Assembly: GCF_032062105.1 (NCBI RefSeq)
Contig: NW_026920569.1
Span: forward strand, 62,001 to 126,000
Origin: Saccostrea cucullata
Taxonomy: Eukaryota
DNA: 64,000 nt
Direction: 5' to 3'
A program made the position numbers and the translations under genes. Shown here one piece after another: positions 2,806 to 63,987 of this stretch. Under the pieces are notes generated by a model, which saw only the letters and a program-made list of their open reading frames with translations, did not search any database and was not told the origin of the DNA. Positions within the stretch are counted from its first letter, which is position 1; each line of letters starts with the position of its first letter.

Positions 2806-4243
2806 TGCATCCATACGCCGTAGCAGTATGAGGGGAGAGAAAAGCCCGCTCTTCATGAAAGAAGCCCGGGAGGAGGCCCTTCATTTCGGCTGGGGACAGA
2901 GCAACGAAGACTTAATGGTCAGGGCCAATCAAATGTCTTCTCTTTGTTTAAACATCCAAATATATGTCTTAATCATGCAGACCTGTTAAAATACTGAAAA
3001 ATATATTATATTGGTAGTTTAATGTGACGTGTATTTCATAAATGTAGTGTATTCCTCATAAATTGAAGTCAAGTTGTCAGTGAAATGTTACCAGATGAAC
3101 TCATTATTCAAATATCTAAAATAAGATATTCAGAGTCCAACAGAACCACCAATAAGTGTAAACATTATCATATACATCATTATAATTCTTGCTTACACTT
3201 TTAGTTATTTCATACTGTACTTAATATACGTAATGGCTTTGATTGAATTGTTTCACTTTCTTCCTACATTTTGATGTCGTATTACTATTTTCCACATATT
3301 AAATTCTCCAAAGAAACCTAATGCTAAAAATTGAAAGTTTGGAGGAACTGTATTTTATGCAGGTTATAATTAGAGTGATTTACTTTGGCAGGAGGAGGAT
3401 AAAGAGAACAGTCCAGCAACAAACATAGAAGATGTTCAGATCATCATAGAGGAGGAAAAACCGGAACCAACTAAAAAGGTGTCACCCCCCTCCCCCGAAC
3501 AACCAAAGACTGTAGATACTACAGCATCCCCCAGACTGTCCCCGGGAAGCACACAGACAGACAGACCACCAGGAGAACGACAATCCTCAAGGTCAAATAG
3601 GCCAGAGTCTGCCCCTCAAGGTCAGCCCAGTCAAAGGCCAAGACCTCAGAACCCTTCCCCCAACAGCCGACAAGAGAGGCCCACATCCACCCCCAGTAGC
3701 CGTCAGGAACGGCCGACGTCTACCCCCAACAGCCGACAGGAACGGCCGACATCTCACCGAGAAACTACCCCTGACAAACCTAGAACAAACAACATTCCAA
3801 AGTCTGTGTCGGAACAGGAGCGACAGAGGCAGCAGGAGAGGCGAAGTGATTCCTCGAGTCCGCGCGTCAAATCAAACTCGTATCAGTTAAACAGCACTGA
3901 GACGGGGACCAGCTCAAACGTTCGCTACCCTTCTGGTCCCTCGTCCATAACTCTGGCCGATTTAAAACGACAGCGTGCAGAGTCAAGAAGCAGAGAGAAT
4001 AGCCTAACGGACATAAGTTCTCAAGTTCAGAACATGTTTATTAACAGTCTGTCCTCTAACAATAGCAAAAAATACAGTTCATCATCGCTGCCTGGCAAAG
4101 AGCCCCATAAAGATAAAAATGGACATAATACCAACAACAACACGCAAGGTTACCACCCAGAGGCGGTGCACAAATTCAAAGCACCACACAGTTCTCCCGT
4201 CATCGGAGAGGACGATAAACAGGGCTGTTGTGTGGTCATGTGA
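2806..4243 (+). CDS. Last two exons (2806-2917, 3392-4243) of an unidentified protein with an S/P/R-rich disordered tail and a C-terminal CCaaX prenylation motif; 5' part lies outside the window or was not found
   Basis: Junctions ttcag|T..., ATG|gtcagg and tggcag|GAGGAG keep frame into the 254-aa ORF. The protein ends QGCCVVM*. GC-rich relative to the flanks. Confidence 0.8.
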
Positions 4244-9115: not shown

Positions 9116-12100
9116 TTAACTTTGTTTCTTTCCTTTTAGAACAGCATCAATCTTTTCCTTGTCTGCTGGAGATTTGTGCAGGTGCTGTAATGTAAAATGA
9201 GATAATTATCAATTTTTATTATGACCGAATATTTAGTACAAAATGTACTTGTATATAAATATGTGATTATACTCTTGTTTGAGGTAGAGATACAGTAAAG
9301 CTCATAGTGTTTAGCTGTGTAGAGGAATGTGCTTTAATTATTGCCCATGTGTATACAGTCTGTACTTCTAATGCATGTATACAGTAAAACTCGTTTAGTA
9401 CGAACACGGTTATTGCGAATTCACAGTTACAGCGAAGTTATGATACCCAGCTATATAAATTTAATGAATTTGTAAATACGGTTATAACGAATGGATATAG
9501 CGAAGTAATATGCGTTATAAATGTATATATAGGATTAGGTGTGGAAAAATGAGGGAACCTGGAAGTAGTCGACCAATATAAATCCAGGGTAACACCACAA
9601 AATGTCAACCCTAGACCTGCATTGGGATAGCTCACACTGATTAAGTATTCAGAGATACAGGTATTTTAAGAATACACTTTGATAACACCTGTATCTGTGT
9701 TACCATTGATACACCTTCATGTCTTACTATTCATATACTTAGTCAATCTTACCTTAGATACATCTATTTGGTAGTGCTGTGTAATGTAAATAATTCCATT
9801 TTTAATTCTCACATTTCTCTAAGATTCTTTTACTTAGCATTGTACAAATCAATGGATTTCAAGTATAAGTATATGAGGAGAATTTTTGATTCAAACAAAA
9901 TTTCCCTCTTCATTGTAACAGTATTTAACAAACTTCTGAAAAAAGTATTGTGAGTAAGTTTGCAAAATAATTTTTTCCCCACTTTATTTTTGAAGTGCCA
10001 ATTCAGTTTGTAAAATAATATGACCTTATTTTTTAAGTGCCCATCCAAAGTTTGTGGCCTATCCATGTACACTGAGCGTGTTTCCATGAAATATTCACAT
10101 AAAGATGTCACCTAGTTCTGGACTCCACGAGCTATTACCACCTTGCTCCATATTGACACTGACTATCACTGTAAATATACTAGTCCAATAGTTTCATTCA
10201 CCTTTTCTTGGAGAGCTAGCTTGGACTGATACGCTGTTTTGGCAAGTTCAATCTCCACCCAATGAGGCTGGTCTGGTATTAAGATGGCTACGGCTACCTT
10301 GATGGCTAGAATAATGTGCTACAACACAAAACAAGGAATCATTAATAGCTAGAATAATGTGCTGTAACACAAAACAATGAATCCTTAATACACATCTTTA
10401 AAACAAACTATGTAGTGTCATTAAACCTACCATATGAATCATGGTGTAGTTTATCATATTAGCCATAATCATGAAAGTACAGTTAGGATGCAGATGGTCT
10501 TTCCACAAGTTTTACTTACATTCTTACAATATATCTTCACTGGTATAAAAATTAAGGCACTGTTGATTGAAGAATTTCTGATTTAATTAGATTAATAACA
10601 AACCTCCACTGCTACGAATATAAGGACAATGTTGACTGGTGTGATGTCCGTGGGTAGGAGCTTTTTGACCTCCGGGTTCATCCCAATCAATGCACAGTTT
10701 GTCATCACGGCCATAATGCTGATCAACTCAAAAGCCACCTGAATTTACAAGGAAAAATCACAAAATGGGATTTCATACTCAAGCAGAAAATGAAAATCAT
10801 CGGAAATTTGAACTGGTGGAAATAAATAAGTCTATAGTAAATCGAAAGCACCTTAAACTTACATCATCACTAGATTTATTCAAAATTACACTTCATTGTT
10901 TCATTCATTTCCATCATAGATTAAAAAAATATAGTTATAAAAAAAAACTTACATAAATTCTGACAGCAATAAGTTGATATTATATCATTAGTCTACAAAC
11001 CTGCCAGGCTCCAATACTAGAAGCAGACTCTGCGAAGGGTCTCTGGAAGACTCGGACCATCTTGAAGGCATCTGAGCGAATTTCTGTGATGTTGTTTAGG
11101 AAAGCCCACAATGCAGCCAGAGGGAAAGCAGAGGAGAAGAGGAACACGTAACCAAACTGTAGAAACATCTCTAAATAGTCGTCCATCGTACCCTGAAAGA
11201 CAGAGAAGGGGTAGTATTACTGATCTTTAATGACATTTCCTAGTAATAATTCACTGTCAGAGACAGCTTATTTTTTTCCATTGTAACCTACCATGTATTC
11301 CTCTATCTTGCTCTCACAATTGATCCCCGTTTATTTCTGAACATCTACACATACTGTATACCCCTTCTTCTCCCTAATGACTACTCCCCAAACACCCCGT
11401 TTCTGAATCTCAAGACATACCAGGTATTCCTCCATCTCTCTCTCTCCCTGTCTATTTATATCCCCTATACATACCAGGTATTCCTCCATCTATTTATATC
11501 ACCTTTACATACCAGGTATTCCTCCATCTATTTATATCCCCTATACATACCAGGTATTCCTCCATCTCGCTCTCCACCCCTGCCTGTTTCTGAACCTCCT
11601 CGTCTATCTCTCCATTGAAATACTCCACTTTCTGTAGGGCGTCCTGTTTCTTCATCAAGTTGTCCACTTGTTTTTTCCGTCGCTTCAGGAAGACAAACGG
11701 TACCATGGCCTCCTGAATCTGACCAATCACTTGCTGGGTGATGAGTAGGCCCGCCAAGTGCTGAAATCCACGAGATTCAATGTAAACAAGAGAGGGGACT
11801 TAATAAAATCAAATTTAACTAAGAAATACTGACCTGAATGACTTAATCACTTGAGATGTTCTTTGTTTTATTTTATTGGCGTTTCTGTTATTAACAAGGA
11901 CATTTCCAGTAGGCCAAACATAAAAGCCTTAAAATGTACAAATACAATGCATGACATGACCATGCCTCCTAGTGAAAAGGCCAGAGAGTTAAAATTACAA
12001 CTTTTACAATGCGAGAAATGAGTTTGCGAGAAGAATAACCATGCCGTCCTCTATGTGCCTATCAACAACAAAAGGCCTGAGAGACCAATGTATTTATATA

Positions 12101-31952: not shown

Positions 31953-34900
31953 TTAGTAGAGGACTTGATCGCGGCCGAAATTCTTGATACAAGTGTCCAC
32001 GATGCTCAGAACTGACGAAGCAGCATCGTTAATGATGGTCGTCAACTCGTTTGGTGTCAGGTTTTGGATCTTGATGTCTCGATTGGTGAAACCATGGCTC
32101 AAAATCCTTTGCATTGCCTGGAAAAAAAATCATATAAATGAAAAGAAACCAGAATGAGATACAACTTAACTTACTTCTGATATTGTGGACTACAAAGGAT
32201 CACGACTACATAATGTCATTCAACAGAGTAGCACTTCAAGAAAAAACTTCCTACTATTTCTGATAATAACTATGCATTGCATGGGAAATGTTCCCTTTTT
32301 AACATTTACCTAATGAATGAAAAATATTTTTTTCTTAACTTTGCATTGAAACATGAAACATTTTGCTTCTTGAAAGTTTTTATCATTCAAACATGTCAAA
32401 AGGTAATGTAGTTTTAAATTTTCAGGGTAAGGAAAAATTTGGTATAAGTTATTTCTAAGGCTACTGCATATAATACTCAATGGTTGATTCTACATCTCTA
32501 TTCTACATCTCTAACATTTGTCTTATCTCTGGTAATGTTTTTTAATGATGGATTGGGGGAAACCTTTAAATTTATCTGTGAATCACTAATAACCTATGAT
32601 ACACATAAGGAAAGTAAATGTAAAATAGTAAGTAAATCTGGTGAATTATGAATTTATTCCCGGCTCAGTTTTTTTTTTTTAATTGAGAAATCCTTTTGAA
32701 ACTTTCTCTGATAATGTACATGTACATTAGCGCCAGCAAGCTTAAAAAGTGATGTTCCTTTGGGGCTGTCTGAAGGAAACTTACCTCCTGCCCCAGGGAG
32801 CAGATCTGTGAGCCTTTGGAGGAGCATTTGAAGCAACTGAGGGCTTTATACACAACGTTAGGAAACTGACAATTGTTAAAATATCCCAGAAGTTTAACAT
32901 TCAGGTCCTGGAATGCCCCGTCAGCCCCAAAGTGGATCAGGTGCCCTACAGAAAACAGAATGACAGATTATAAATTACTGTACAGGAGTGATGTTATTGA
33001 ACAAAGACAAATACTCAATAAAAAAACTTTTAATTTTAAATCTGAGTGTACTAATACTTTCCTAGGAAAAAGTTTGGTAATTTTTTTAACATCTTGAAGT
33101 CCTGCCCCATTGCATTTTGTCAGAACAAAGATTTTAATAGTTAGAATAAATATTACACCCAACAGATTATTAGTATCTCATATCACTAACAATGCTTTAG
33201 GTTTAATAGAAATCTCAGCCAATGCTTTCAGAAATGTTTAAAATCAGCATGCATACCAGCTACATAATTACCATTCCAATCATCATTCAAACCCTAATCA
33301 CCTAAGTATATACATTATCAAGGGTTACAGATACATCATTCATTCACTTATAAATGAATCAACGACCAGTTTTGTCTTTATTTCACAAATTGGTAATGTG
33401 TGGTTTAAAAGATGGGTGAATAGTCAAGTCTGACTTTGTATTATTATTATTTATTTACTATTTTTTAATCTACAAGTATTATCATGTTGTCATCCTGCGA
33501 GATGATATAGGATTAATCTATGTTATTTTATTTTGATGGAGTTTAGCTAGGGCCCCATCACTGGCAGCTGCCATATAGATTTGTGTAGAAAATTCCAATG
33601 TTGTAGCATTGGTATGGGAAATAAAATCTTTTAAAAAGTTAGACAATGTATCAGTACAGGTAAATGGGGAAAACTTCATACTAAAATAAGAAAAACTAGT
33701 TGTGTGTTTACTGTAGTGTTTGTATAAATAGGTGTATGTTTACACCAGAGCTGATCCAGTACTGACCTTTGTATCAATAGATGGATGTATTTATTATGAT
33801 GTTGACTGACCTTTGTATCAATAGATGGATGTATTTATTATGTTGTTGACTGACCTTTGTATCAATAGATGGATGTATTTATTATGATGTTGACTGACCT
33901 TTGTATCAATAGATGGATGTATTTATTATGATGTTGACTGACCTTTGTATCAATAGATGGATGTATTTATTATGATGTTAACTGACCTTTGTATCAATAG
34001 TTGGATGTATTTATTATGATGTTGATCCAGTACTGACCTTTGTATCAATAGATGGATGTATTTATTATGATGTTAACTGACCTTTGTATCAATAGATGGA
34101 TGTATTTATTATGATGTTGACTGACCTTTGTATCAATAGATGGATGTATTTATTATGATGTTGACTGACCTTTGTATCAATAGACGGATGTATTTATTAT
34201 GATGTTGACTGACCTTTGTATCAATAGATGGATGTATTTATTATGATGTTGACTGACCTTTGTATCAATAGACGGATGTATTTATTATGATGTTGACTGA
34301 CCTTTGTATCAATAGATGGATGTATTTATTATGATGTTAACTGACCTTTGTATCAATAGACGGATGTATTTATTATGATGTTGACTGACCTTTGTATCAA
34401 TAGATGGATGTATTTATTATGATGTTAACTGACCTTTGTATCAATAGATGGATGTATTTATTATGATGTTGACTGACCTTTGTATCAATAGACGGATGTA
34501 TTTATTATGATGTTGACTGACCTTTGTATCAATAGATGGATGTATTTATTATGATGTTGACTGACCTTTGTATCAATAGACGGATGTATTTATTATGATG
34601 TTGACTGACCTTTGTATCAATAGATGGATGTATTTATTATGATGTTAACTGACCTTTGTATCAATAGACGGATGTATTTATTATGATGTTGACTGACCTT
34701 TGTATCAATAGATGGATGTATTTATTATGATGTTAACTGACCTTTGTATCAATAGATGGATGTATTTATTATGATGTTGACTGACCTTTGTATCAATAGA
34801 CGGATGTATTTATTATGATGTTGACTGACCTTTGTATCAATAGATGGATGTATTTATTATGATGTTGACTGACCTTTGTATCAATAGACGGATGTATTTA

Positions 34901-37900
34901 TTATGATGTTGACTGACCTTTGTATCAATAGATGGATGTATTTATTATGATGTTAACTGACCTTTGTATCAATAGACGGATGTATTTATTATGATGTTGA
35001 CTGACCTTTGTATCAATAGATGGATGTATTTATTATAATGTTAACTGACCTTTGTATCAATAGATGGATGTATTTATTATGATGTTAACTGACCTTTGTA
35101 TCAACAGATGGATGTATTTATTATGATGTTGACTGACCTTTGTAACCATAATGGACATCCTCATCAAAACGAACTTTTGCGACAAACCAAAGGAACACAT
35201 ATTCTAACTGCATTTTCTCGAGGCGACTGAATGATTCGACTTCCGTAGTCATGCTGCTCAGTTTCTGTATCTGTACCTGACCTTCGCGTATAACTCGTGG
35301 GACAGAGGTCGTCAGTACACCTATATATAGGGAACGAAGGTCATGCATTAGTGAAGTCATGCACAAGGCCCAGTGTTAGACATATCACCCTTGTGCACTG
35401 AATTTCCCATGCTATTAGAAAATGCCCTTGTCATGATACAGCTGCCCATTCTGTGTAAAGCTCCATCATACTCTGAAAACTAGAGTCAATTTGAAATGCA
35501 GAAAAGTTTGAAGTCTGGAAACCAAAACTTCCCCATGCTCTGAAAGATTACACAACCATTAATTAATTGTTCAATCCCCACAATGATTGAAAAATTACAG
35601 TGTTTAAATCTTTTTTTTTAACAGTACATGTATATAAGAAGTTAAATGTCAAGATATTTAAAACTTTTCTAAAAATTAAAACACTGTGAAATTTCAAATT
35701 ATGCAGAAATAAGCCATGCATATATAGGTATATATAAAGTGAGTTTTCAACATGCACACGATACTTTGAGTCATCTAATCCCAGAAGTTAAAAGTACATT
35801 TCAGGTTCCTTAAGTTTTTCTAAGACTCCTGTTTTTGATACTTTTTAGTTCAAATGTAAATAACATTCTACATGTAAATGTCAGCTAGCTACAGATATGA
35901 ATGTCACAGTTTGAAAGATGTGATTGACAGGCATGTTAAAATCAGAATATGGGGGCAATTTGATATCAAAAATCCCCATGCACAACTGACAGGCCATTAG
36001 TATAACCCTTGTGTTGAACATAAGCTGTTGATTGGGACATTAGCATAACCTTTTCAAACCACTACCAGTTGTTTGGCCTACGCCTTGTTGGCAATTAGCT
36101 GTTTTGGGGACATTAGCCTTACCTTTGTGACTGAGTAATAGTTATTGGGGCCATTAGCCTCACCTTTGTGACCGAGTAACAGTTACTGGGGCCATTAGCC
36201 TCACCTTTGTGACTGAGTAACAGTTATTGGGGACATTAGCCTCACCTTTGTGACTGAGTAACAGTTATTGGGGCCATTAGCCTCACCTTTGTGACTGAGT
36301 AACAGTTATTGGGGCCATTAGCCTCACCTTTGCGACTGAGTAACAGTTATTGGTGCCTTTGTGACTGAGTAACAGTTATTGGGGCCATTAGCCTCACCTT
36401 TGTGACTGATTAGCTGTTGTTTGGGGCCATTAGCCTCACCTTTGTGACTGATTAACTTGCGGGGGTCAGACTTGCTCAATGTCCTCAGAAACAGCTGCTC
36501 TAGCTGTACTTTTTCTGATTTGTTAAACGCTGTCACTGAGCTGACAACATTTGTTTTGTTAACTATGGTGAGATTTTCTGGTTTTATGTCAGGAGGGACA
36601 GGAATAGAGAGTACACCTGTCAACAAATAAAATAAATAATTATGTCACCTGTCAACAAATAAAATAAATAATTATGTCACCTGTCAACAAATAAAATAAA
36701 AAATTATGTCACTTTGGTAACTGGCTCTAAAACCTCTGAAACAAAGAGTGTTCGGATAATTCCTGAAGAAAGTCCATCAATGTCAAATAATATCAGGTGG
36801 AAAGATAATTCAATCTCCAAGCGATTCACGTCTTGTCTTCAGTTCACCTTTAAGAGATCTTTTTGAGAGAGAAAAATCATCAACAACAACAATATGAATC
36901 AATACCAGCAAATAAAATTGACTGCCAAAATACTTATCAATACAGACAAAACAGCAAATATGTGTAGCTAGCAGTACTGACATAGATATTTAGTGAGCTT
37001 TTTATGACAGTCAGAGTAAAAACCTAGATATATCATGGGTAATATAAGGAAAACAAGTTGATTAACCCCTTCAGGCTTTATTCTGTATTGAAGGAGTTGA
37101 TCTGATTGGATAAGTATTTCCTGACCTTTAATGTCATCCTTGTTGCCCAGAAATGGTCCTAGAGTCTCCGCCCAGACCTTGTCTCCCTCAACATCAGCAA
37201 CGTCCCCCACAGTCAGGGACCACACGACAGTAGGAGGGGTCTGATATATCTAAAAATAGAATCAAAAACTGTCAGGAACCACATAACAGTAGGGGGAGTC
37301 TGATATATCTAAAAAAAGAATCAAACACTGTCAGGAACCACACAACTGTAGGAGGGTCTGGTATATCTAACAAGAGGCCCACGGGCCTTATAGGTCACCT
37401 GAGTATTATGTAACAACTTTCAAACAATTAAATTTGATTCGTGTTTTAAACCAGAGGCCATGAAATTCACAATTTACAATTTTTAAAGAGGCACCATTGC
37501 TTATCATAATTATTAACTTAGCATGTTTACTCCATTTACTTAATACCCAGAGGTATATCAGAGTAACAAAGAGAAAATGCACTTCCACTTTATACCCAGT
37601 TGTGCACCTCACCCTAAAGGAACCACTGACCCATGGGCCACATATTCAAAATTTTGCAAATTTATCATAAAATGGTTGATTAATACTAAAGAGCAGATTT
37701 CAAAGCATTAATTTATTTTCAGACTATGTACCCCCCCCCCCCCCCCTCTGACCCTGGGGGCATAAAAAAACACTTTGCTAGATGCACCTTTCTTCATCAT
37801 AAATATATTGGCATAAAACCCAGAAGCAAAGGAAAATATTTTCAAAGAAATTATTTTTACTACTGAGTATATAATCAATAGAGCCACGCCCTAACACCAG

Positions 37901-61112: not shown

Positions 61113-63987
61113 TTACATATGTAGAATGAGGTAATTGAGATATGTGGCGTAAACCCCGAATCCTAGACCGGAAGTGTGAGCCAGACAGTCATCTAAAAAA
61201 GAAAAACAAGCTTTTCATATGAATCGTTCTCATGCCAAATTAAAATCTAAGGTGGTTTTTCTCGTAATCTTCTACATTTTTACAAAAGCATTATATTATG
61301 TATAAAATAAAATCAGTTAAACCAGGGACAAGCGATCGATGATTTGTTTTTATCACGATCAAAAGAAGGAACAGAGCGGAGAAGTAAACAGACAGACAGA
61401 CACACACAGATAGACAGACAGATAAAGAAAAGTTGACATCAAATTAATTTTAAACTTAAATTTCAAATTATTTAAGCTCTTGTACTTTGCAATCCATATA
61501 AGTGAACATTAAAGATTTACAAAAAAACCCTATATCTATTAATATAACTGTGATAGAACTGGTTATACCTTTCATTCCCTTCTCTCTCATTAGTTTCCTC
61601 ATCGTGGGACCGGACGCCAACCTGTTTCAATATTCAGTTTAATTAAAGGAAGTTCACTTTGTCCAATATTATTATACGAAAGAACCTTTTAATGTTAAGG
61701 ATGTCTTCTCTTAAATTAGGAAAGATAACTCTGTACTTTATTAATTATTTGTTTGAGTGAATGTATTTTTAATTAAACAATAAAATGCTTTCTTTGTTTG
61801 TAGTTACTGGAATGAACGGAAGCAGCTGTTGCAGAAAAAATACATAACCCGCGTATATTTATATCTGTTTTTAAGTAGGATTAAATATATTAATTATTGT
61901 GTTAATGATAACGTCTTTGTAATTTATTAACTGATCAAGAAATTTGTTTGATATGCCTAATGTAGTTTTTTACGCAATGGGTTTCATAAGAAATAAAGAA
62001 AAATATTCAGTGGATGTAAATATATGTATTATAAATTTTAATGCTCTGCGAGTCTTTGTGTTTGGTGGCAAGAAAGTTCCATATGAAAAAAGAGAGATGA
62101 ATTTTATACAACATTATAAGAAGTTCGTCATGAATTCAAATAATAGACGAATTCTTATGACATGTAGAACTTATACACCCGATATATATAGAGTGTACAA
62201 GTCTTACCCCTCCTCCTTAAGTTCCTTCGCCTCCTCTTTTTCGAATGACTCTTTGGATTCCTCTTCCGCCTGTAATTTGGCTTTCTCGTAAGTCGCGTGG
62301 GAAACATTGAGATTCTTGTAGACATCATTCACCATTTGGTCGGTCAATTGCTCAAGATCGTCCAAGGTCATCCTGAAGCAGCCGACACGGGCATCTAACC
62401 AGCGCAGAACTATTTTCATCCAATCCTCTCGCATAAAACTTTCATATCCCAAAGGTCCACACAAAACAGCTGTTCAAGAACGAACCACAACTAAATTACA
62501 ACATCAATCTATTGAAACCTAAAAGTATTTTATGTACAGAAACTTTATAAAAGCACCCACTTTGCTCCAGGAAGAGGTCTTGGTTGATTGATTTCACGTT
62601 TCCGTTCTTAACCAAAGTCTGAGCCTCTTTGTAGATTTTTTTGCACATGCGCGTCTGCACATCTCTGATTTTGTGTCCGTGTAAATCCTTTTCTACCTGC
62701 TTTAGACATCCTACCTACGGGTAAAAATGGTTTCAAATTAGTCGGTTGTTTTGACTATTAGAAGGCTTTGACGTGATTGTATCACTGTAGTGTAACAAAA
62801 CTGCGAGCCGACGAAACTTGTACATTTCTCATCAATTTATTGTGTACATTTCTCAGCAATTTATAAAAAAATTTGTGTGTGTGTGTTAGCACACCTTGGC
62901 TGGCCAAAGGCGAGACTCATTGGGATTTCCCGCACTTTTTAGTTTAATAGGCTGACCAGAGAATATTCGACCTTGACTAGCGATAATGACCTTGCCAATA
63001 AAAAATACTATATAAATTGCACTGCACAAACAAATGAGTTTGAATAAATCTTAATCATTGTGGTGTTTTGCTAGTGAACGATATAAATGACAAATATATA
63101 TAACTGTCAGCTGATTCAATACGCAAAAGCACTAATAAAAAATGAGAGAGACTATTGACAAACAAGTGGATAATACAGTTTCGTTTCAAGTTGACATTCT
63201 GCAAATGGTCGATCGATGGTCTTTCGCAAATGTTATAATGTTAAGAGTACAATACATATAATGCAAAGATGACTGACGTCTTTCATACAATTAAGCAAGG
63301 CTCAATTGACTTTGGATTTCTACGTTTATATACTCGATGATGAAACAATATTGGGGCGAGAGTTACCAATTAGGGGATGCTTACTTCTCCAAGGCACCTA
63401 ATCACACCTTTCATGTTTTCATATGCTCTTGATTGTTCTTCTCTCAATTTATATTATTAAATTGAACAATTATTGATGAATACCGTTCGTTTTCTTTTTA
63501 TTACATGCGTAGTTAAATCCTTCAATTACACACTCTTCCATGAACAACTGATAATTCATTCGATCAGTAATTAAAAGGTCTTTTAATCAACTGTTGCTTC
63601 TAAAGGCGATGTTGCTAATTTCATAATAAATATTTAACAATTTAAAACTTATTGAGATCGATCGTGTTAATTCTTAATGTGTGTTTTTTTTTTTAACTTT
63701 GGTTTATGATGTGAATATCCAGTCATTATATGGGAACTGATTCCATGGGGTTGATGTGATGTGATGTAGATATTATCACAAATCCGTCATACTTCAATAA
63801 ATGTACTTTCTAAGTGAAAAGTTATTTTACAAACCATGCTCTCTGCCTGTATAACTTTTGCCGGTATCGACTTACGTGCTCAATGACGATGAAATAGAGT
63901 AACTGGTGCGTGATGGCGTACTTCGATGTGTTTTCTGAGGTCATGAACTTCCAGCATTCAGGGGTCATAGTACAACGAGGGAGATTT
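61113..63987 (-). CDS. C16orf89/UPF0764-like protein, 3' five exons (63876-63987, 62561-62714, 62208-62469, 61569-61621, 61113-61192); 5' part outside the window
   Basis: ECWKFMT...YAITHQLLYF, GC...MCKKI, DLFLEQTVLCGPLGYESF...W...VLRW...GCF and REK...DDCLAHTSGLG follow the C16orf89 family pattern. Phases are consistent. Confidence 0.85.

What the first reader, a model, noticed from the sequence alone, without database searches (positions are those of the whole stretch)
35138..36616. Homologous, probably mutually exclusive exon pair in the FAM20-like domain
Exon 10a (177 nt: GVLSIPVP...VTAFNKSEKVQLEQLFLRTLSK...SHK|G) and exon 10b (183 nt: GVLTTSVP...VESFSRLEKMQLEYVFLWFVAK...GYK|G) are diverged duplicates. 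Both are phase 1-1, open and flanked by valid splice sites. They cover the segment just before the metal-binding loop, so swapping them would remodel the pseudo-active site. Staying open despite deep divergence implies selection on both.
Basis: partly seen in the sequence, partly recalled or inferred. Interest (0 to 1): 0.7.

Follow-up and report, generated by a model that had tools for sequence, protein, structure and literature searches.

The report
Either-or exon in oyster secretory pseudokinase
An oyster gene for a likely Golgi or secreted protein with two probably inactive kinase-like domains carries two diverged copies of one exon, and the transcripts seen use one or the other; the oyster-specific copy drops family-wide residues at the predicted pocket and adds three conserved sites that would likely carry sugar chains, a new example of a known kind of splicing switch.

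Summary
Confirmed. Exons 10a (36616-36440, 177 nt) and 10b (35320-35138, 183 nt) are homologous, phase 1-1 and AG/GT-flanked. A 12-exon model with either one rebuilds RefSeq LOC134251269 X2 and X1 letter for letter. One RNA run shows joints 9>10a, 9>10b, 10a>11 and 10b>11, and no 10a>10b. Of 24 oyster proteins covering the region, 9 carry 10a only, 14 carry 10b only, and 1 defective model carries both. The pair occurs in Saccostrea, Magallana and Crassostrea; 35 non-oyster proteins carry a single 10b-like segment. The domain has the FAM20 fold (Z about 20) but lacks the ATP Lys and metal Asp. The exons likely span the hinge through the catalytic-loop equivalent. Exon 10a loses the invariant Trp and His-x-Gly-Tyr and gains three N-glycosylation sequons kept in 5 of 5 oyster sequences. 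Frameshift decay, short-intron steric block and RNA pairing do not explain the exclusivity. It is a new member of a known class; the glycan and pocket role is untested.

The parts
36440..36616 (-). Alternative exon 10a (177 nt, phase 1-1; residues 710-767 of isoform X2/P0001); oyster-specific derived copy
35138..35320 (-). Alternative exon 10b (183 nt, phase 1-1; residues 710-769 of isoform X1/P0015); ancestral-type copy
36567..36575 (-). N-glycosylation sequon 1 of 10a (N723, NLT/NFT), kept in 5 of 5 oyster 10a sequences
36552..36560 (-). N-glycosylation sequon 2 of 10a (N728, NKT/NQT), kept in 5 of 5
36516..36524 (-). N-glycosylation sequon 3 of 10a (N740, NKS), just before the predicted helix 741-756, kept in 5 of 5
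35187..35189 (-). W753 in 10b, invariant in 24 of 24 10b-type mollusc rows; R/K/A in 10a
35139..35159 (-). D763-x-H765-x-G-Y-K in 10b, inferred catalytic-loop equivalent; His, Gly and Tyr lost in 10a
35321..36439 (-). Intron between 10a and 10b, 1119 nt, GT-AG; candidate branch points 31 and 59 nt before 10b
37126..37249 (-). Constitutive exon 9, spliced to either 10a or 10b
32785..32945 (-). Constitutive exon 11; carries G776 at the position of the metal-binding Asp of FAM20 kinases (inferred)
45701..46447 (-). Coding exon 1: basic N-terminus, predicted signal-anchor helix, N-lobe of the FAM69/PKDCC-like domain
44203..44404 (-). Exon 2 (kinase-like domain 1)
43709..43915 (-). Exon 3 (kinase-like domain 1)
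42230..42265 (-). Exon 4 (linker)
41830..41981 (-). Exon 5 (linker)
40246..40432 (-). Exon 6 (PAN-like domain, weak Pfam hit)
39899..40144 (-). Exon 7 (end of PAN-like domain, start of FAM20-fold domain)
39469..39692 (-). Exon 8 (FAM20-fold N-lobe; L644 where Hydra Fam20 has Lys, H656 where it has Glu)
31953..32117 (-). Exon 12, ends at the stop codon
36104..36456 (.). 41/42-nt minisatellite made of the 10a exon end plus donor; 8 donor-like sites
33761..35155 (.). 44-nt minisatellite made of the 10b exon end plus donor; 32 donor-like sites
36614..36712 (.). 32-nt repeat with three copies of the 10a acceptor

Best explanation
Exons 10a and 10b are a tandem exon duplication, likely from the common ancestor of true oysters, used one at a time in the transcripts seen, so the gene makes two forms of a predicted luminal tandem pseudokinase whose second (FAM20-fold) domain likely differs at its non-catalytic pocket and glycan coat. 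Shown: either-or splicing, one reading frame, the FAM20 fold in the predicted model, loss of W753 and His-x-Gly-Tyr in 10a, and three conserved sequons in 10a only. Inferred: type II Golgi/ER orientation; both domains catalytically dead; the exon spanning hinge to catalytic loop; the sequons being glycosylated; 10b keeping the ancestral binding surface while 10a masks or retunes it (partner choice, stability or trafficking). Exclusivity is most likely enforced by trans-acting splicing regulators, by elimination. My odds: exclusivity about 0.93; glycan/pocket retuning as the function of 10a about 0.45; trans-factor control about 0.6.
For: Gene model with 10a or 10b equals P0001 or P0015 letter for letter. 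RNA run X1 has joints 37126>36616 and 37126>35320 and loose ends matching exon 11 at both donors; no 10a>10b joint. 23 of 24 oyster proteins carry one exon only. All five 10a rows form one side of a branch, 99/98 support, with a 1.64 stem. 35 non-oyster proteins match the 10b motif and 0 match the 10a motif. The 10b model matches FAM20A/FAM20C at Z 20.1-20.4, rmsd 4.5-4.8, 283-287 aligned residues over 562-877. The Hydra Fam20 Lys and Glu align to L644 and H656; K at 644 in 1 of 22 and D at 776 in 3 of 22 family rows; domain 1 has D at the catalytic position in 1 of 22. All six sequon residues are invariant among five 10a rows, where 25 of 58 columns are (post hoc p 0.004), and 5 of the 10 invariant residues specific to 10a are sequon residues. 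Of the 8 differences that run X1 lists in the exons, 6 are synonymous against about 22% expected, p 0.002.
Against: RNA evidence is one run, as contigs, which drop rare forms; junction sides are 20-24 letters for three of four joints. One database protein, P0007, has both exons, and a both-in product stays in frame (936 aa). 10a diverges faster than 10b between genera (53-69% vs 67-77%) and both faster than flanks (74-91%). The AF2 model of 10a is low-confidence across residues 701-800 (block pLDDT 36-69 vs 66-94) and no FAM20 entry is among its top 50 VIA rows. The five 10a rows are related (two pairs at 86% identity), so the sequon statistic is inflated; N740 may be kept as a helix cap. The metal-Asp alignment rests on a non-significant stretch (-4.0 bits). 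No glycosylation, localisation, binding or tissue data. The tree neither shows nor rejects 10a+10b as one clade (p-AU 0.25), so an older duplication with loss elsewhere is possible.
Confidence: 0.6

Rival explanations
1. 10a is an off-switch: it destabilises or unfolds the FAM20-fold domain, giving a degraded, ER-retained or dominant-negative form, and the sequons are secondary.
For: Loss of residues that are invariant in 24 of 24 10b-type rows (W753, Y768; Y749 in 4 of 5 10a rows). The pLDDT drop spreads over the C-lobe in the 10a model.
Against: 10a keeps P716, F739, K744, Q746, E748, K757 and K769 and the same predicted helix 741-756. 4 of 5 listed changes in 10a are synonymous. Only 5 of 30 alignment rows carried 10a, and one model run per isoform cannot show instability.
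Confidence: 0.22
2. 10b makes an active atypical kinase (D763-x-H765 as catalytic loop, with a POMK-like rearranged site) and 10a makes the inactive partner, like a FAM20C/FAM20A pair from one gene.
For: D-x-H is present in 5 of 5 oyster 10b rows and absent from 10a. Hydra Fam20 uses Asp299 and His301 (PMC5865150 passage). That paper also notes POMK was once thought inactive.
Against: The ATP Lys, ion-pair acid and metal Asp lie in shared exons and are missing (L644, H656, G776). D763 is in only 6 of 22 family rows.
Confidence: 0.1
3. The exons are independent cassette exons, with double inclusion or double skipping common in some tissue.
For: Both-in (936 aa) and neither (816 aa) keep the frame; P0007 has both.
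Against: No 10a>10b joint in run X1; 23 of 24 proteins have exactly one exon; P0007 also lacks the N-terminal anchor and other segments, as a faulty model would. Two copies of a core helix are hard to fit in one kinase fold (inference). The 9>11 skip lay outside both stretches laid, so it was not tested as a joint.
Confidence: 0.07

Closest known systems
Homologous mutually exclusive exons from tandem duplication (Lam et al. 2021, PMC7954323; read: abstract, sections 9 and 14)
   Same: Duplicated exon, one used at a time, fold likely kept, variable residues near a functional site. That paper lists catalytic-site switches (fly CG42249) and a glycosylation-site switch (KLRC2).
   Different: Here the site belongs to a predicted pseudokinase, and three sequons are gained together and kept across three oyster genera, against one site lost through a 2-residue change in KLRC2.
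coq-2 exons 6a/6e (Tan et al. 2020, PMC7434440; read: matching passages)
   Same: A lineage-restricted alternative exon that remodels an enzyme's active-site core, also present in molluscs.
   Different: coq-2 is an active enzyme with a shown substrate switch; here no function is shown and the pair was found only in true oysters.
FAM20A / FAM20C / Hydra Fam20 (PDB 5wrs, 5yh0, 5xom; PMC5865150, read: passages)
   Same: Same predicted fold over residues 562-877 (Z about 20, 15-17% identity). FAM20A is a pseudokinase that acts by binding a partner.
   Different: No Pfam Fam20C or FAM198 hit; key catalytic residues missing; fused behind a FAM69/PKDCC-like domain and a PAN-like domain.
PKDCC/VLK, POMK and FAM69 secretory kinases (PMC3696010, read: passages)
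   Same: Domain 1 passes Pfam PIP49_C (44 bits, cut-off 25.2); POMK is the top PDB sequence hit (E 4.6e-5); N-terminal anchor.
   Different: The catalytic Asp of the FAM69 [LM][CL]D motif is Gly273 here; the alternative exons are not in this domain.

Membership tests
Homologous mutually exclusive exons | Adjacent exons of common origin, similar length, same phase | tested here: met
   177/183 nt, phase 1-1, E 2e-8, shuffle tests
Homologous mutually exclusive exons | Each exon is spliced to both flanking constitutive exons | tested here: met
   All four junctions in run X1; RefSeq X1/X2
Homologous mutually exclusive exons | Double inclusion absent or rare | tested here: met
   No 10a>10b joint in one contig-level run; 1 of 24 proteins has both. 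Rare forms are not excluded.
Homologous mutually exclusive exons | Double skipping (9>11) absent or rare | tested here: inconclusive
   0 of 24 proteins matching the flanking motifs lacked both, but the pattern needed a 40-140 aa segment, and exon 11 lay outside the stretches laid
Homologous mutually exclusive exons | Regulated (tissue or stage) choice | not testable with these tools
   Only one coded run was served
Exclusion by frameshift/NMD | Double inclusion shifts the frame | tested here: not met
   Both-in is open, 936 aa
Exclusion by steric block | Downstream branch point within about 50 nt of the upstream donor (threshold recalled) | tested here: not met
   Intron 1119 nt; candidate branch points 31 and 59 nt before 10b; distal branch points were not mapped
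Docking-selector RNA pairing (Dscam-type) | Conserved competing intronic duplexes | tested here: inconclusive
   Best duplexes not beyond shuffles: 17/25, 10/25, and 0/25 then 4/57; no orthologous introns were available for conservation
FAM20 kinase-fold family | FAM20 fold | tested here: met
   VIA Z 20.4, rmsd 4.5, 287 aligned to 5wrs for the 10b model; Atlas features 0.93 to FAM20B and FJX1 clusters
FAM20 kinase-fold family | Pfam Fam20C or FAM198 above cut-off | tested here: not met
   No hit in 6 of 6 proteins; sub-threshold FAM198 hits in 3 of 15 distant relatives
Active FAM20 kinase | ATP-binding Lys, ion-pair acidic residue, metal-binding Asp | tested here: not met
   L644, H656, G776 by alignment to Hydra Fam20 (the last stretch non-significant); family counts
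Active FAM20 kinase | Catalytic Asp-x-His | tested here: inconclusive
   D763-x-H765 in oyster 10b only; register inferred; D in 6 of 22, H in 18 of 22
Active FAM69/PKDCC kinase (domain 1) | Catalytic Asp | tested here: not met
   G273; D in 1 of 22 rows; D291 and E190 are largely kept
Secretory-pathway type II membrane protein | Luminal orientation of the kinase-like domains | not testable with these tools
   Basic N-terminus and hydrophobic helix (mean KD 1.6 at 9-27; AF2 helix 10-35) are consistent with it

The most novel reading that the evidence does not exclude
Oysters evolved a splicing-controlled glycan shield over a pseudokinase pocket: one gene yields an ancestral ligand- or partner-binding form (10b) and a triply glycosylated, pocket-blocked form (10a) that acts as its built-in regulator, in an unstudied tandem secretory pseudokinase family (FAM69/PKDCC-like + PAN-like + FAM20 fold) running from sponge to lancelet and tunicate, possibly tuning extracellular phosphorylation for shell or mucus matrix.
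Probability: 0.2. Interest if true: 0.7.

Novelty: new member of a known kind. Interest (0 to 1): 0.42.

Why it matters
It is a clean natural swap of the hinge-to-catalytic-loop segment in a predicted secretory pseudokinase. Comparing the two isoforms would show which surface of this uncharacterised domain matters and whether gained glycans can act as a splicing-controlled mask. The host family, with two different kinase-like folds in one predicted luminal protein from sponge to tunicate, did not turn up in my paper searches. The splicing class itself is well known, and the isoforms are already in RefSeq as X1/X2.

Tried and rejected
Frameshift/NMD as the exclusion mechanism: both-in and neither stay in frame. 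RNA pairing: 101 inverted repeats listed, 25 shown. Best 30-nt duplexes were not beyond shuffles for intron 9-A x A-B (17 of 25) or 9-A x B-11 (10 of 25). Intron A-B x B-11 gave 0 of 25 at first and 4 of 57 on repeat, one of three comparisons, so I rejected it. A third hidden copy or a paralog: none found. An exon-10a word search of longer proteins found only the two Saccostrea proteins among 15 candidates; it missed the known Magallana 10a, so it is weak evidence of absence. A contig lying inside the 10a donor repeat (36379-36438) is entirely intronic and probably a collapsed repeat; I did not count it as read-through. Contig depths and Logan contig counts were not used to rank isoforms. The 10a model returned no FAM20 row in the top 50; domain 1 fills those lists. 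Two scripts had off-by-one coordinates or residue numbers, corrected; the exon 10 codon effects were in frame, the exon 9 ones were not and are unused. Paper searches found no description of this gene or exon pair: (LOC105338496, 0 hits). These cover open full text only; supplements were not searched and may list the locus. No complex prediction was run, as there is no candidate partner.

Full report
Observation. On the minus strand, 36616-36440 (177 nt) and 35320-35138 (183 nt) are AG/GT-bounded, phase 1-1 and open, and give the quoted peptides. They are homologous: 16/48 identical, E 2e-8; protein score 68 against a maximum of 41 in 2000 shuffles; DNA score reached by 0 of 500 shuffles. No third copy scored between exons 8 and 12, and each exon has one match in G000.

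The gene. Coding exon 1 is 100% identical to P0001, named by NCBI as LOC134251269 isoform X2, Saccostrea cucullata. A model of 13 exons from 46447 to 31953, with 10a or 10b left out in turn, translates to P0001 (875 aa, 10a) and P0015 (isoform X1, 877 aa, 10b) letter for letter. Including both (936 aa) or neither (816 aa) also keeps the frame.

Either-or use. The one RNA run served (X1, Logan contigs, small share) was laid on 35156-37260 and 35095-36660. It shows joints exon 9>10a and 9>10b (CT..AC), and loose ends at both donors that match the start of exon 11 with one mismatch. No 10a>10b joint appears. Contigs drop rare variants, three of the four junction sides are 20-24 letters, and 9>11 could not show as a joint. 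Among 24 stored oyster proteins spanning the region, 9 have 10a only, 14 have 10b only and 1 has both. These include X1/X2 pairs for S. cucullata, S. echinata, Magallana gigas and Crassostrea virginica, and unnamed Logan proteins on contigs of about 3 kb. Only 15 of the 83 members of the Magallana cluster were listed. The both-in protein P0007 also lacks the N-terminal anchor and other segments, so it is probably a faulty model.

Origin. 35 non-oyster proteins match the 10b motif and none the 10a motif; isoform pairs checked in scallops, limpets, abalones and lancelet differ elsewhere. These are annotations, not genome scans. In a 60-column tree of 22 rows, the five 10a rows form one side of a branch (99/98) with a long stem; the five 10b rows group at 88/91. 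Holding 10a and 10b together is not rejected (p-AU 0.25), and is not shown. Over the first 48 residues, three 10b rows share about 20 identities with 19 non-oyster rows, and three 10a rows 16-17. So 10b is the ancestral type and 10a the fast-diverged copy, present before Saccostrea, Magallana and Crassostrea split. Between genera 10a is 53-69% identical and 10b 67-77%; flanking regions are 74-91%. Of the 8 differences that run X1 lists in the exons, 4 of 5 in 10a and 2 of 3 in 10b are synonymous, against about 22% of sites (p 0.012, 0.12, pooled 0.002). Differences near contig ends are not listed, so this is a partial count.

The protein. It has a basic N-terminus and a hydrophobic helix, a FAM69/PKDCC-like domain (PIP49_C, 44 bits), a PAN-like domain (weak hit) and a C-terminal domain with no Pfam hit. 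The AF2 model of the 10b isoform (mean pLDDT 74.7) aligns over 562-877 to FAM20A (Z 20.4, rmsd 4.5, 287 residues), FAM20C and Hydra Fam20. A profile of C-terminal fragments finds Hydra Fam20 at E 6.9e-5. In that alignment the Hydra Lys and Glu fall on L644 and H656, and a non-significant stretch puts the Asp of the metal-binding loop on G776. Across 22 family rows, K is at 644 in 1 and D at 776 in 3; domain 1 has D at its catalytic position (G273) in 1. Both domains are therefore likely pseudokinases. Full-length relatives occur in a sponge, lancelets, a tunicate and many molluscs.

What the swap changes. By topology and spacing from G776, exon 10 runs from the last N-lobe strand through helix 741-756 to the catalytic-loop equivalent. 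This is inferred; Hydra uses Asp299 and His301 (PMC5865150 passages). 10a keeps P716, F739, K744, Q746, E748, K757 and K769. It loses W753 (24 of 24 10b-type rows), Y768 (24 of 24), G767 (23), H765 (20) and, in 4 of 5 rows, Y749. It gains N-x-S/T at N723, N728 and N740 in 5 of 5 oyster rows; oyster 10b has none in 5 of 5, and 6 of 19 non-oyster rows have one. All six sequon residues are invariant where 25 of 58 columns are (post hoc p 0.004), and they make up 5 of the 10 invariant residues specific to 10a. Shuffles of each exon give that many sequons at p 0.013-0.037. The rows are related, so these values overstate the case. The 10a model is less confident over 701-800 (36-69 vs 66-94). That may mean instability, or only that 5 of 30 rows carried 10a.

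How exclusivity is kept. NMD by frameshift is excluded, and a short-intron block is unlikely (1119 nt). Intron duplexes did not beat shuffles on repeat. Trans-acting regulation remains by elimination. Both donors and the 10a acceptor sit in splice-site minisatellites (8, 32 and 3 copies), but the junctions seen use the true sites. Earlier scan notes report the same repeat type as common and tolerated (unreviewed AI notes).

Comparison and verdict. Homologous mutually exclusive exons that alter residues near functional sites, including catalytic and glycosylation sites, are a described class (PMC7954323, abstract and sections 9 and 14); coq-2 is a mollusc-relevant case (PMC7434440 passages). 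I also saw passages of PMC7948968 and PMC3696010; other papers only as search listings. Searches found no account of this gene or pair; supplements were not examined. The finding is real and already implicit in RefSeq. What is new is the asymmetry (pocket residues lost, three sequons gained) in an unstudied tandem pseudokinase family. Function is untested. Interest 0.42.

Noticed in passing
window 33761-35155, 36104-36456, 36614-36712, 37212-37370: Four minisatellites are built from this gene's own splice junctions (32 and 8 donor-like, 3 and 2 acceptor-like sites). The first decoy donor after 10a lies 42 nt on, in frame (+14 aa). RNA contigs use the true sites.
   Followed up: partly
window 39138-39222: Partial copy of the exon 9 acceptor repeat inside intron 8, about 1.9 kb upstream of the real acceptor.
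   Followed up: no
P0043/P0219, P0051/P0193, P0039/P0222 (two Haliotis species, Gigantopelta): Gastropod orthologs have two diverged alternative C-terminal ~50 aa segments, likely a duplicated last exon: a second, independent exon duplication in the same FAM20-fold domain.
   Followed up: partly
P0057, P0059, P0201 (lancelet, sponge Oscarella, tunicate): The anchor + FAM69/PKDCC-like + PAN-like + FAM20-fold architecture extends far beyond molluscs. The sponge protein keeps Lys and Asp at the two FAM20 catalytic positions. Lancelet isoform X2 drops 56 aa of the N-lobe.
   Followed up: partly
window about 10983-16954 (-): Anoctamin gene (PF04547 at 12737-13336); a 38-nt repeat at 11451-11567 appears to span one of its donors.
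   Followed up: partly
window 18996-20876 (+): Long single ORF (627 codons stop to stop) for an LRR protein with a C-terminal transmembrane segment.
   Followed up: partly
window 55481-57566 (+): Open 406-aa frame with DUF3504 and a weak phage-integrase hit, Crypton-like tyrosine-recombinase type (label recalled), with an acidic upstream ORF.
   Followed up: partly
window 3374-4240 (+): 289-aa Ser/Pro/Arg-rich last exon ending in a CAAX-like motif; no Pfam hit.
   Followed up: no
window 54118-54705 (-) and 62207-62473 (-): A hydrophobic 196-aa frame with no Pfam hit, and a DUF4735 exon.
   Followed up: no
window 37868-38788 and 42514-43394: Intronic 168-nt and 156-nt satellite arrays (about 5.5 copies each) within the gene.
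   Followed up: no
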